Shown here one piece after another: positions 52,966-53,406 of a stretch of 64,000 nucleotides of DNA; the stretch's first letter is position 1, and every line of letters begins with the position of its first letter. A program made the position numbers and the translations under genes. The stretch spans positions 448,001 through 512,000 of the forward strand of contig CAVRGP010000011.1 of NCBI GenBank assembly GCA_963720755.1, in the 5' to 3' direction. This stretch comes from an uncultured Chloroflexia bacterium. Its GTDB lineage: Bacteria > Chloroflexota > Limnocylindria > Limnocylindrales > CSP1-4. The notes beneath the pieces are model-generated. The model was not told where the DNA came from. It did no database searches and worked only from the letters and a program-made list of their open reading frames with translations.

Positions 52966-53406
52966 ATGAACTACGAGCTGTTCATGGACGAGGCACTCGA
53001 AGAGGCGAAACTCGCCCTCTCGGTCGGCGAGCGACCGATCGCCGCGGTGGCGGTCGTCGATGAGGCGATGGTCGTTCGAGCCCACGACCGGGTCCAGGAG
53101 ACCAACGACCCGACGGCCCATGCGGTCATCGTCGCCCTCCGCGAGACGGCTCGCAAGCTTGGCTCCGTCCGTCTCGCCGACGCGACGATCTTTGCGACGC
53201 AGGAACCGTGCTCGATGTGCGTCGGCGCCCTTCTCGAGAGCGATGTGGAAGCCCTCGTGTTCGCCCTGGCGGATCCTCTGGATGGCGCCGCCGGGTCGGT
53301 CATCCAGCTCGCCCAGCATCCGGATCTGCCTCGCCGAATCAAGGTCGTCAGCGGCATCCGCCAGGAGCAGGCGGAAGCGCTGTTCGCCGCTGTCGCCACC
53401 ACCTGA
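52966..53406 (+). CDS. tadA: TadA-like nucleoside deaminase fold lacking the catalytic Glu
   Basis: FMDEALEEA, NDPTAHAV (HAE to HAV), TQEPCSMC, DPLDGAAGS; canonical tadA position before tRNA-Ser/SRP/dnaX. Confidence 0.85.
   Translation: MNYELFMDEALEEAKLALSVGERPIAAVAVVDEAMVVRAHDRVQETNDPTAHAVIVALRETARKLGSVRLADATIFATQEPCSMCVGALLESDVEALVFALADPLDGAAGSVIQLAQHPDLPRRIKVVSGIRQEQAEALFAAVATT

What the first reader, a model, noticed from the sequence alone, without database searches (positions are those of the whole stretch)
52966..53406. Bacterial ADAT3-like pseudo-TadA: catalytic Glu replaced by Val, yet gene retained
Seen: the only tadA-like gene in the window sits at the canonical tadA locus (before tRNA-Ser, SRP RNA, dnaX). 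It reads PTA-H-A-V (CAT GCG GTC, 53119-53127) instead of HAE, while the Zn ligands (His, PCSMC) are intact. GTC is two substitutions from either Glu codon, so one base-call error cannot explain it. Other usual TadA residues also drift: AHD for GxN, DPLDG for DxKxG, and the basic FFxxRR tail is absent. The ORF is intact, has normal codon bias and has its own extended -10 box. Known: the HAE Glu is the proton shuttle of TadA, and Glu-to-Val is the change seen in the inactive eukaryotic subunit ADAT3/Tad3. Inference: A34-to-I editing is lost here (see the tRNA-Arg GCG finding), but a Zn-binding pseudo-deaminase is kept, possibly as an RNA-binding factor or as the partner of an active paralog in a Tad2/Tad3-like heterodimer.
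Basis: partly seen in the sequence, partly recalled or inferred. Interest (0 to 1): 0.85.

Follow-up and report, generated by a model that had tools for sequence, protein, structure and literature searches.

The report
Dead TadA kept without its tRNA
A soil Chloroflexota lineage replaced the one tRNA that the essential editing enzyme TadA acts on, yet kept the TadA gene in place with its catalytic residue swapped for valine and under strong selection, so the protein must now do something else.

Summary
Window 52966-53406 (+) encodes a 146-aa TadA homologue that reads H-A-V (53119-53127) where TadA has HAE. The zinc ligands H52, C82 and C85 are intact.

It is not an error or a sporadic allele. 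Of 171 distinct orthologues fetched from relatives, 157 have Val, 1 Ile, 2 Leu and 11 Glu. All the Glu forms come from other families, apart from one odd second copy.

Within the class Ca. Limnocylindria the split is clean:
- Families f1 and f4 carry HAV with tRNA-Arg(GCG)+CCG+UCG and no ACG.
- Family f3 carries HAE with tRNA-Arg(ACG).
- The streamlined family f2 has GCG and no homologue at all.

The HAV clade is under purifying selection at least as strong as genuine TadA (omega 0.042 against 0.079). Four of five RNA-backbone contact residues are lost, and new residues such as D41 and D93 are fixed instead. The homodimer is still predicted.

The genome holds no second TadA, so a Tad2/Tad3-like heterodimer is unsupported. 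Best reading: a repurposed, catalytically dead, stand-alone pseudo-TadA of unknown, dispensable function. This converges on eukaryotic ADAT3. A second, independent HAV lineage sits among Rhodothermus-like TadAs. I found no prior description.

The parts
52966..53406 (+). pseudo-tadA coding sequence (146 aa): positional orthologue of tadA that lacks the catalytic Glu
53119..53127 (+). H52-A53-V54 (CAT GCG GTC), in place of the HAE catalytic motif
   Evidence: Among 152 orthologues the codon at this position is GTC 93, GTG 53, GTT 3, CTG 2, ATC 1
53206..53220 (+). P81-C82-S83-M84-C85: zinc-ligand motif, intact
   Evidence: C82, M84 and C85 are 100% conserved in 159 HAV-clade sequences
53086..53088 (+). 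D41, which replaces the TadA active-site Asn
   Evidence: D in 90% of the HAV clade, N in 97% of HAE TadAs
53242..53244 (+). D93, a charge reversal of the RNA-backbone contact Arg (S. aureus R94 / E. coli R98)
   Evidence: D 88% against R 98%; for the role of that Arg
53278..53280 (+). L105, at the position of the RNA-backbone contact Lys (S. aureus K106 / E. coli K110). The position is variable within the clade
52952..52960 (+). TGCTAGCAT, an extended -10-like element 6 nt before the ATG. No Shine-Dalgarno; probably a leaderless transcript
   Evidence: found in 72 of 152 loci against 3 of 152 in a control window; not found by the strict scan
53455..53540 (+). tRNA-Ser(CGA), the conserved downstream neighbour
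   Evidence: directly downstream in 129 of 136 distinct HAV loci; the same arrangement follows a canonical HAE tadA in G522
53695..53782 (+). tRNA-Ser(GGA), the second downstream tRNA
   Evidence: both Ser tRNAs present in 110 of 136 loci
46124..46199 (+). tRNA-Arg(GCG), the G34 tRNA that stands in for the TadA substrate tRNA-Arg(ACG). Anticodon loop UUGCGGA
51672..52850 (-). pfk, the divergent upstream neighbour. Context only: conserved in f1, not in f4
54509..54772 (+). SRP RNA (context)
54734..56422 (+). dnaX (context). The longest ORF overlaps the SRP RNA, so the true start is probably later

Best explanation
The gene is the true, in-place orthologue of tadA in a clade of Ca. Limnocylindria (families f1 and f4). 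This clade decodes CGN arginine codons with three tRNAs (GCG, CCG, UCG) and has no A34 tRNA.

With its substrate gone, the enzyme lost its proton-shuttle Glu (now Val, rarely Ile or Leu) and most residues that grip the anticodon loop. It can no longer make inosine-34.

It did not decay. It keeps the fold, the His/Cys/Cys zinc site and, by prediction, the TadA-type homodimer. It has also fixed a new set of conserved residues: Y3, R23, D41, F76, D93, Q114, Q117-H118 and R123.

My commitment is that it works as a non-catalytic, homodimeric zinc protein. Its former active-site cleft now binds a different ligand or partner without deaminating it. The role is useful but dispensable, because the genome-streamlined sister family f2 deleted the gene.

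What is shown: the loss of the catalytic residue and of the substrate, the selective constraint, positional orthology, and the deletion in f2.

What is inferred: catalytic death, the dimer, and above all the nature of the new ligand or partner. I give about 0.35 to 'binds something other than an anticodon loop'. The wider statement (dead for A34 deamination, yet maintained for another function) carries the confidence given below.
For: 1. Clade-wide replacement.
- 171 distinct orthologues from fetched loci: 157 Val, 1 Ile, 2 Leu, 11 Glu.
- The 120 nearest database clusters: 118 Val, 2 Ile.
- 30 of 30 fetched f3/f5 loci are HAE.
- 53 of 152 Val codons are GTG, one step from GAG, yet no Glu is seen inside the clade.

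2. The substrate is lost in step.
- ACG anticodon-arm pattern: f1 0/44, f2 0/6, f4 0/50, f3 26/49, f5 0/1.
- GCG pattern: f1 37/44 plus G000, f2 6/6, f4 46/50, f3 1/49, f5 0/1.
- 20 fetched tRNA-Arg genes from the order: 7 GCG, 10 CCG, 3 UCG, 0 ACG.
- The single-contig relative G102 has 47 tRNA matches. Its Arg set is GCG, CCG, UCG, CCU and UCU, and no anticodon starts with A.

3. Selection.
- ML codon model omega is 0.042 (a random 30 of 159 HAV sequences) against 0.079 (29 of 30 f3/f5 HAE sequences).
- 68 of 146 positions are at least 90% conserved over 159 HAV sequences, against 66 of 155 over 29 HAE sequences.
- The Zn ligands are 100% conserved.

4. Changed constraints (mapped).
- RNA-backbone contacts: V43, L105 (variable), residue 149 absent, D93 (88%). 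Only R69 is kept.
- Asn to D41 (90%).
- The aromatic at position 68 is lost.
- N-H becomes P-R at 122-123.

5. Orthology.
- tadA followed by tRNA-Ser(CGA) is also the layout of a canonical HAE TadA (48% identical) in another Chloroflexota family, G522.
- A profile of the clade hits bacterial TadA best (5.6e-35), with ADAT3 at only 3e-13.

6. No partner. G000 has one TadA-like gene and only one other CDA-fold gene.

7. Dispensable. In f2 the syntenic block runs tRNA-Ser(GCT), tRNA-Arg(GCG), dehydrogenase, then tRNA-Ser(CGA), tRNA-Ser(GGA). It lacks this gene and pfk. A TadA homologue was found in 0/24 and 0/19 f2 genomes.

8. Homodimer model.
- ipSAE is 0.83 against a best of three controls of 0.12.
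- The mark was reached by 20 of 30 proteins solved as pairs of one chain and by 1 of 23 solved as single chains.
- The runs agree in 100% of contacts, and pLDDT is at least 92.
- My own alignment was used, so these counts hold only roughly.
- TadA homodimers are solved, so the pass may reflect likeness rather than binding.
Against: - No biochemical datum exists. Catalytic death is inferred from the role of the Glu in TadA, and from ADAT3, where the Val-to-Glu change does not restore activity (PMC8216470).
- The zinc site and a pocket carboxylate (D41) remain, so some other chemistry is not excluded.
- The HAV/GCG association rests on what looks like one evolutionary transition (one HAV group, SH-aLRT 94). 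It is therefore a single event, not a statistical correlation.
- Exceptions exist. G191 (f3) matches the GCG pattern and had no TadA match. G190 (f4) has both an HAV and an HAE copy, and neither Arg pattern.
- ACG was found in only 26 of 49 f3 genomes, all of them incomplete MAGs.
- dS is saturated (tree lengths of 21-28 per codon site), so the omegas are useful only as a comparison between clades.
- No expression evidence was obtained.
- There is no conserved protein-coding neighbour to suggest a partner. pfk is adjacent in f1 only.
Confidence: 0.69

Rival explanations
1. Non-catalytic RNA binder. The dead enzyme still docks on an anticodon loop or another RNA hairpin, for instance tRNA-Arg(GCG) or the two tRNA-Ser genes it is probably co-transcribed with, and acts as a chaperone, shield or processing cofactor.
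For: - It descends from an RNA-binding enzyme.
- The gene sits inside a tRNA gene cluster across the clade. tRNA-Ser(CGA) is directly downstream in 129 of 136 loci.
- tRNA-Arg(GCG) lies on the same contig, usually 2-11 kb from the gene by the coordinates, though 45 kb away in G079. It is only 59-140 nt away in G104 and G155.
- R69, the equivalent of S. aureus R70, is kept in 82% of sequences.
Against: - Four of the five backbone-contact basic residues are lost, one by charge reversal (D93).
- The C-terminal helix that lies in the RNA major groove in S. aureus TadA (PMC10586758) has lost its basic tail.
- Positions 68 and 105 have become variable, meaning they are unconstrained.
- Median net charge is -6 and median pI 5.2.
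Confidence: 0.15
2. It is still an enzyme. The zinc-water site is used for deamination or hydrolysis of a different substrate (a free base, a nucleoside, or another nucleic-acid site), with another residue such as D41 or H40 taking over proton transfer.
For: - The Zn ligands and the surrounding DPTAH-A / EPC-MC motifs are invariant.
- N41 to D is fixed in 90% of the clade, and H40 in 92%.
- Constraint is as strong as in the real enzyme.
- Position 103 is Asn in 69% of the clade, and the E. coli D108N change is known to alter substrate handling (PMC10586758).
Against: - I know of no CDA-fold deaminase that works without the HxE/CxE Glu (from recall; Iyer et al. 2011, PMC3239186, list the signature as typifying the division).
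- Val/Ile/Leu at this position is what the inactive ADAT3 has.
- The second HAV lineage does not share N-to-D.
Confidence: 0.12
3. Tad2/Tad3-like heterodimer. The HAV protein is the inactive subunit of a complex with an active deaminase paralogue.
For: - The analogy with ADAT2/ADAT3.
- Some f1 genomes carry other HAE-type CDA-fold paralogues.
- G190 carries an HAE TadA as well as the HAV one.
Against: - G000 has no second TadA-type gene and only one other CDA-fold gene.
- No A34 tRNA exists to edit.
- The paralogues in relatives are GuaD-like or another subfamily, and they are patchy.
- G190's HAE copy has no counterpart in 39 of 40 other f4 genomes and groups with non-Limnocylindria TadAs.
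- The homodimer is predicted with confidence.
Confidence: 0.03
4. An artefact or a decaying pseudogene: a base-call error, a sporadic allele, or a relic drifting neutrally after loss of its substrate.
For: - The substrate is gone, so decay would be the default expectation.
- Family f2 did lose the gene.
- A second HAV lineage among Rhodothermus-like TadAs looks more erratic at other conserved sites.
Against: - There are 157 intact HAV orthologues across two families and more than 30 genera.
- Omega is 0.042.
- 68 of 146 positions are at least 90% conserved.
- Independent assemblies agree.
Confidence: 0.01

Closest known systems
Bacterial TadA (tRNA adenosine(34) deaminase, NCBIfam NF008113; solved examples 2b3j, 1z3a, 7cph)
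   Same: - Full-length homology: 40-46% identity to HAE TadAs, E 1e-25 to 1e-35.
- The same size, the same Zn motifs and the same predicted homodimer.
- The same genomic slot, upstream of tRNA-Ser(CGA), as a canonical TadA in G522.
   Different: - It has no catalytic Glu and no Asn in strand 2.
- Four of five RNA-backbone contacts are lost, and the C-terminal helix has no basic tail.
- The genome holds no tRNA-Arg(ACG).
- It scores below the curated family cut-off.
- It is not essential, since f2 deleted it. E. coli TadA is essential (Yokobori 2013, PMC3711424, passage).
Eukaryotic ADAT3/Tad3, the inactive subunit of the ADAT2/3 heterodimer
   Same: Glu replaced by Val, the His/Cys/Cys zinc site kept, tRNA recognition determinants lost, and the C-terminal helix shortened (PMC8216470).
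   Different: - It is convergent, not related. The clade profile hits ADAT3 at 3e-13 but TadA at 5.6e-35.
- It has no N-terminal tRNA-binding domain.
- It has no active partner subunit and no A34 tRNAs.
- It has no conserved C-terminal acidic residue to cap the zinc; positions 141-146 are variable.
Degenerate TadA* and tadA loss in Mollicutes (Yokobori et al. 2013, PMC3711424)
   Same: CGN decoding was rewired: a UCG tRNA was gained, ACG was replaced by GCG, and TadA became unnecessary (abstract and passages).
   Different: In Mollicutes the weakened enzyme is then lost. Here a Glu-less form has been kept under strong constraint through the radiation of two families. In addition, the GCG tRNA is closer to the clade's CCG tRNA (89%) than to the f3 ACG tRNA (77%). 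That points to an anticodon shift in a duplicated gene rather than an A34G change.
Other catalytically inactive deaminase-fold domains (for example ADAD2 and plant RibD versions, listed by Iyer et al. 2011, PMC3239186)
   Same: A deaminase fold retained without its catalytic signature, and proposed to act as a binding module.
   Different: Those are eukaryotic paralogues or extra domains that sit beside an active copy. This one is a stand-alone bacterial orthologue with no active copy.

Membership tests
TadA (tRNA adenosine(34) deaminase) | Full-length sequence homology to TadA | tested here: met
   NF008113 E 9e-33 over positions 6-144 of 165; PDB TadAs from 6.8e-27; clade profile 5.6e-35
TadA (tRNA adenosine(34) deaminase) | Score above the curated NCBIfam equivalog cut-off (150 bits) | tested here: not met
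   113.4 bits. 0 of 121 genomes of the order pass. This is a weak test, because only 6 of the 12 control genomes that match pass the cut-off
TadA (tRNA adenosine(34) deaminase) | Catalytic Glu of the H-A-E motif (proton shuttle) | tested here: not met
   V54. Val/Ile/Leu in 160 of 160 orthologues of the HAV clade, taken from the 171 distinct sequences
TadA (tRNA adenosine(34) deaminase) | Zinc ligands His and PCxxC | tested here: met
   H52, C82 and C85 are 100% conserved
TadA (tRNA adenosine(34) deaminase) | Substrate tRNA-Arg(ACG) encoded in the genome | tested here: not met
   G000: Arg tRNAs GCG, UCU and CCU only (the assembly is incomplete). Closed relative G102: GCG, CCG, UCG, CCU, UCU. 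ACG pattern in 0/44 f1 genomes
TadA (tRNA adenosine(34) deaminase) | Basic residues holding the anticodon-loop backbone (S. aureus R44, K106, R149, R70, R94) and the basic tail of the C-terminal helix | tested here: not met
   V43, L105, absent, R69, D93
TadA (tRNA adenosine(34) deaminase) | Asn in strand 2 and a basic residue after strand 4 (synapomorphies listed by Iyer et al. 2011) | tested here: not met
   D41 (90%), and position 105 is variable. The feature list comes from PMC3239186
TadA (tRNA adenosine(34) deaminase) | Homodimer | tested here: inconclusive
   Model only: ipSAE 0.83 against best control 0.12. A like complex is solved, so the pass may come from memory
TadA (tRNA adenosine(34) deaminase) | A34-to-I34 deaminase activity | not testable with these tools
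   Needs an enzyme assay
ADAT3/Tad3 (inactive eukaryotic subunit) | Glu to Val with the Zn triad retained | tested here: met
   the ADAT3 features come from PMC8216470
ADAT3/Tad3 (inactive eukaryotic subunit) | N-terminal tRNA-binding domain | tested here: not met
   A single-domain protein of 146 aa
ADAT3/Tad3 (inactive eukaryotic subunit) | Active ADAT2/Tad2-like partner encoded in the genome | tested here: not met
ADAT3/Tad3 (inactive eukaryotic subunit) | Closer in sequence to ADAT3 than to TadA | tested here: not met
   ADAT3 at 1e-10 / 3e-13 against TadA at 7e-27 / 5.6e-35
ADAT3/Tad3 (inactive eukaryotic subunit) | C-terminal acidic residue capping the zinc | tested here: inconclusive
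   No conserved acidic residue at positions 141-146. No reliable 3-D model: AF2 mean pLDDT 60.1

The most novel reading that the evidence does not exclude
Loss of the A34 tRNA freed TadA to take on a new job more than once in bacteria.

In Limnocylindria the result would be a stand-alone, homodimeric zinc protein with a remodelled pocket (E54V together with N41D, R93D and N122P/H123R). This protein would have a new specific ligand or even new chemistry, for example sensing or sequestering a nucleobase or nucleotide, or acting on a nucleic-acid site that is not a tRNA anticodon.

That would be a natural, bacterial counterpart of both ADAT3 and the laboratory re-targeting of TadA.

The independent HAV lineage among Rhodothermus-like TadAs (6 of 120 clusters) would mark the same road at an earlier stage.
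Probability: 0.2. Interest if true: 0.85.

Novelty: new variant of a known kind. Interest (0 to 1): 0.72.

Why it matters
TadA is treated as a near-universal, essential bacterial enzyme with one substrate, and it is the scaffold of adenine base editors.

- **A natural experiment.** A whole clade has replaced the substrate tRNA by a G34 tRNA, and the enzyme was neither kept active nor simply lost. It was converted into a conserved Glu-less protein.
- **A second route to an ADAT3-like pseudo-deaminase.** This one has no active partner, which bears on how pseudoenzymes arise.
- **An annotation error.** JGI names these proteins 'tRNA(adenine34) deaminase' and NCBI 'nucleoside deaminase'. This would mislead reconstructions of tRNA modification in Chloroflexota.
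- **A ready data set.** The clade offers about 160 natural sequences with a defined set of co-fixed substitutions around the TadA pocket. These can be tested directly by expression, zinc analysis, binding screens and structure determination.
- **An archaeal-style decoding scheme.** It documents a three-tRNA CGN scheme (GCG, CCG, UCG) in an abundant soil and freshwater bacterial class.

Tried and rejected
- **Expression.** Four public runs were laid on 52700-53700. The two metatranscriptome runs cover only the tRNA-Ser stretch (53431-53542), with other organisms' flanks. This gives no evidence for or against transcription of the gene.
- **3-D model.**
  - AlphaFold2 on the HAV-only alignment A3 gave mean pLDDT 60.1 and pTM 0.49, which is too poor to use.
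  - No fold search was run, and distances such as D41 to zinc could not be measured.
- **ESM Atlas**: it returned only generic TadA or nucleoside-deaminase clusters.
- **BLAST with an f3 tRNA-Arg(ACG) gene** against G190, G165, G179, G163 and G000: no further ACG genes turned up. For those f3/f5 genomes, ACG is therefore not shown.
- **pfk as a functional partner.** It is adjacent in 122 of 136 f1 loci and is deleted together with the gene in f2. But it was not found in the stretches fetched around the f4 genes, most of which reach only about 300 nt to either side. Rejected as a clade-wide link.
- **N41D as a change coupled to E54V.** It is not shared by the second HAV lineage. Rejected as a general rule.
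- **f1 genomes without a match.**
  - In G083 the tRNA-Ser pair lies at a contig end.
  - G026, G081, G089, G090 and G095 also lack the neighbouring GCG pattern.
  - These are most likely assembly gaps near the rRNA operon, not losses.
- **Strict sigma-70 scan**: found no promoter.
- **Literature.** Seven full-text searches found no description of a bacterial Glu-less TadA or of Limnocylindria tRNA-Arg(GCG).
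Full report
**The observation**

Window 52966-53406 (+) is an intact 146-aa ORF. It reads CAT GCG GTC at 53119-53127 and CCG TGC TCG ATG TGC at 53206-53220.

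It is homologous to TadA over its whole length:
- NCBIfam NF008113: E 9e-33, 113.4 bits, curated cut-off 150.
- Pfam MafB19-deam and dCMP_cyt_deam_1.
- The best solved relatives are bacterial TadAs: 7cph at 6.8e-27 and 2b3j at 1.2e-25. ADAT3 scores only 1.1e-10.

The printed alignments put V54 on the catalytic Glu. With the residue numbers given in PMC10586758, H52, C82 and C85 fall on the zinc ligands H53, C83 and C86 of S. aureus TadA.

**It is not an error, and it is not sporadic**

Record titles of close relatives place the organism in Chloroflexota, Ca. Limnocylindria/Limnocylindrales.

I fetched orthologues from the genus, family, order and class. This gave 171 distinct proteins: 157 HAV, 1 HAI, 2 HAL (the same G178 gene, fetched in two overlapping loci) and 11 HAE.
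- All HAE forms come from families f3 and f5, or are the second copy in G190.
- A further 20 f3 loci were all HAE, which makes 30 of 30 for f3/f5.
- The 120 nearest clusters in the 5.8-billion-protein collection are 118 Val and 2 Ile.
- Of the best 150 representatives among 1.84 billion proteins, the top 30 or so with the motif are all HAV. HAE TadAs begin at about 46% identity.
- The Val codon is GTC in 93, GTG in 53, GTT in 3, with 2 CTG and 1 ATC. Many lineages therefore sit one step from GAG, yet none has Glu.

**The tRNA side**

G000 (15 contigs, 93.6% complete) has tRNA-Arg GCG, UCU and CCU, and no ACG.
- It also lacks CCG and UCG and has only one CAT tRNA.
- Yet CGG makes up 36.1% and CGA 13.9% of Arg codons in 756 long ORFs. 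Some tRNA genes are therefore simply unassembled.

Relatives fill the gap.
- Twenty fetched Arg-tRNA genes from the order are 7 GCG, 10 CCG and 3 UCG.
- The single-contig relative G102 has 47 Rfam tRNA matches. Their anticodons were all read. They include Arg GCG, CCG, UCG, CCU and UCU, and no anticodon beginning with A.

Across 151 genomes of the class that are at least 80% complete:
- An ACG anticodon-arm pattern is found in f1 0/44, f2 0/6, f4 0/50, f3 26/49 and f5 0/1.
- The GCG pattern is found in f1 37/44 plus G000, f2 6/6, f4 46/50, f3 1/49 and f5 0/1. Backward-read controls gave 0 hits and 1 hit.

These tallies include four genomes that the tools flag as unpublished: G201, G223, G238 and G214. 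No sequence of theirs was used. Leaving them out changes each count by at most two.

The picture is therefore:
- HAE goes with ACG (f3).
- HAV goes with GCG+CCG+UCG (f1, f4).
- Family f2 (genomes of about 1.1 Mb) has GCG and no TadA homologue: 0/24, 0/19 and 0/6.

f3 already has a UCG tRNA beside ACG (G167). This would have made I34 dispensable for reading CGA before the switch.

**The protein is maintained, not decaying**

- An ML codon model (GY+F3X4+G4) gives omega 0.042 for a random 30 of 159 HAV sequences. It gives 0.079 for 29 of the 30 f3/f5 HAE sequences; the one shorter than 145 aa was dropped.
- Pairwise Nei-Gojobori medians are 0.06-0.33.
- dS is saturated and GC3 is extreme, so only the comparison between clades is meaningful.
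- 68 of 146 positions are at least 90% conserved in 159 HAV sequences (mean pairwise identity 70%). The figure is 66 of 155 in 29 HAE sequences (67%).

**The pattern of constraint has changed**

The comparison is, with 159 HAV sequences against 69 HAE. Sequences under 125 aa were dropped, and HAE database hits were restricted to 140-215 aa.

| Position | HAV clade | HAE TadA |
|---|---|---|
| 41 | D 90% | N 97% |
| 54 | V 98% | E 100% |
| 76 | F 100% | Y 92% |
| 93 | D 88% | R 98% |
| 122-123 | P-R | N-H about 85% |
| 3 | Y 97% | D 73% |
| 23 | R 76% | V 88% |
| 68 | variable | W/Y 90% |
| 105 | variable | K/R 93% |

- Q114 (95%), Q117 and H118 are newly conserved in the HAV clade.
- The basic C-terminal tail is missing.

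PMC10586758 (passages) names S. aureus R44, K106 and R149 (one monomer) and R70 and R94 (the other) as the residues that hold the anticodon-loop backbone. The window protein has V43, L105, nothing, R69 and D93 at those positions.

The clade is also more acidic. Median pI is 5.2 and net charge -6. All HAE sequences have pI 6.5 and charge -1, and f3 HAE sequences have pI 6.1 and charge -3.

**Orthology and history**

- In a 401-genome sample of the phylum, matches at E <= 1e-33 occur in f1 (20/23), in f4 (18/18) and in one other genome, G522.
- G522's protein is a canonical HAE TadA, 48% identical, with EVPVGAV, GHN, DAKAG, LNH and FF..LR motifs. It is directly followed by tRNA-Ser(CGA). The tadA then tRNA-Ser layout is therefore ancestral, and the HAV gene is the positional orthologue.
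- In 136 distinct HAV loci of at least 3 kb, tRNA-Ser(CGA) is directly downstream in 129. Both Ser tRNAs follow in 110.
- In f2 (G040) the same block runs tRNA-Ser(GCT), tRNA-Arg(GCG), a dehydrogenase, a 129-aa ORF with no HxE/PCxxC motif (by eye like a PPOX-family protein, from recall, not tested), tRNA-Ser(CGA), tRNA-Ser(GGA). This gene and pfk are absent.
- A quick ML tree puts all HAV rows in one group (SH-aLRT 94). It does not resolve that group's sister, and the placement of long rows is unsure.

**Partner or no partner**

- G000 has one TadA-like gene.
- Only one other CDA-fold gene exists, in a 388-aa frame that I take from its length to be RibD.
- Secondary hits in other f1 genomes are GuaD-like or belong to another deaminase subfamily.
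- G190's HAE copy groups with non-Limnocylindria TadAs. It has no counterpart in 39 of 40 other f4 genomes. It is either contamination or a recent transfer.

A homodimer model passes:
- ipSAE is 0.83 against a best of three controls of 0.12.
- The mark was reached by 20 of 30 proteins solved as pairs of one chain and by 1 of 23 solved as single chains.
- The runs agree in 100% of contacts, and pLDDT is at least 92.
- My own alignment was used, so these counts hold only roughly.
- Because TadA homodimers are solved, this shows likeness to them, not binding.

**What it most likely is**

It is a repurposed, catalytically dead TadA.
- Shown: the proton-shuttle residue is gone, the substrate tRNA is gone, most RNA contacts are gone, the protein is under strong constraint with a new conserved residue set, and it was deleted in a streamlined sister family.
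- Inferred: it cannot deaminate. This follows from the role of the Glu in TadA. It also follows from ADAT3, where Val replaces the Glu, zinc is retained, and Val-to-Glu does not restore activity (PMC8216470, passages).
- Inferred: it is a homodimeric zinc scaffold whose remodelled cleft binds something new.
- Not excluded: residual RNA binding (0.15) or a new chemistry that uses D41 or H40 (0.12).
- Effectively excluded: the heterodimer idea for this genome, and neutral decay.

**Comparison with what is known**

- It is a TadA by descent, but it fails the defining functional features: the Glu, the Asn, the RNA contacts, the substrate, and the curated cut-off.
- It works like ADAT3 in how it was inactivated, but it is not a member of that family. 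It has no N-terminal domain and no partner, and its sequence is closer to TadA.
- Replacement of ACG by GCG and loss of tadA are described for Mollicutes (PMC3711424).
- A review states that Thermotogae and Spirochaetes carry GCG (PMC8007984, passage). I could not verify this.
- I found nothing in print on a conserved Glu-less bacterial TadA. Supplements were closed.

**A second lineage**

P0045 and five related clusters (P0271, P0273, P0278, P0282, P0299) are HAV.
- Their nearest relatives are HAE TadAs at 72-75% identity, in a set that includes TadAs named for Rhodothermus and other Bacteroidota at 64-66% identity. They are only 35-41% identical to the window protein.
- This is an independent Glu-to-Val event.
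- Other conserved sites vary erratically among these clusters. That looks like an earlier or less constrained stage.
- Their tRNA sets could not be examined.

Noticed in passing
window 46124-46199; L165, L171, L227, L228: The clade's tRNA-Arg(GCG) is 89% identical to its tRNA-Arg(CCG) and 86% to its UCG tRNA, but only 77-78% identical to the f3 tRNA-Arg(ACG). Its anticodon loop is UUGCGGA against CUACGAA. The G34 gene therefore probably arose by duplication and an anticodon shift of a CCG/UCG-type gene, not by an A34G change in the ACG gene.
   Followed up: partly
whole genome G000: The assembly has 52 tRNAs but no tRNA-Arg(CCG) or (UCG), and only one CAT tRNA. Yet CGG makes up 36% and CGA 14% of Arg codons. 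Several tRNA genes are unassembled, and relatives have them.
   Followed up: partly
proteins P0045, P0271, P0273, P0278, P0282, P0299: A second, independent HAV lineage whose nearest relatives are HAE TadAs at 72-75% identity, in a set that includes Rhodothermus-named TadAs at 64-66%. Their genomes and tRNA sets were not seen.
   Followed up: partly
proteins P0062, P0065, P0068, P0012: Odd relatives in metagenomes. P0062 joins a RibD-like N-terminal half to an HAV-clade C-terminal half. P0065 reads HAP. P0068 reads HAA and has EPTPMC, so the first zinc Cys is lost. P0012 reads HAF and lacks the middle of the protein. These may be chimeras or decaying copies.
   Followed up: no
G190:C60:1478-1888 (L213) and G190:C56 (L207): One f4 genome holds both an HAV copy and a canonical HAE TadA, on a 7.6-kb contig. 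The HAE stretch has no counterpart in 39 of 40 other f4 genomes and groups with non-Limnocylindria TadAs. Neither the GCG nor the ACG pattern was found in this genome.
   Followed up: partly
G191 (family f3): This is the only f3 genome with the GCG anticodon-arm pattern, and it had no TadA match at E <= 1e-12. It could be a mis-binned contig or a second transition.
   Followed up: no
L321 (G040:C4:7516-10615): In the streamlined family f2 the syntenic tRNA block is compacted to about 1.7 kb. A 129-aa ORF with no HxE/PCxxC motif (by eye like a PPOX-family protein, not tested) sits where pfk and the pseudo-tadA lie in f1.
   Followed up: partly
window 52952-52960 and orthologous loci: A conserved TGCTAGCAT lies 6-9 nt before the start codon with no Shine-Dalgarno (72 of 152 loci). 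This suggests leaderless transcription of this gene, probably together with the two downstream tRNA-Ser genes.
   Followed up: partly
window 54509-54772 and 54734-56422: The longest dnaX ORF starts inside the SRP RNA gene. The real dnaX start is probably downstream.
   Followed up: no
protein positions 101 and 103 (window 53266-53274): Position 103 is Asn in 69% of the HAV clade (the window itself has Asp), and position 101 is Val in 47%. These correspond to E. coli D108 and A106. D108N is the first mutation that gave laboratory TadA its DNA activity (PMC10586758). The A106V link is from recall.
   Followed up: no
G102 (closed relative): ARAGORN calls a tRNA-Ile(TAT) in G102. If real, AUA may be read by a UAU tRNA in this clade.
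   Followed up: no
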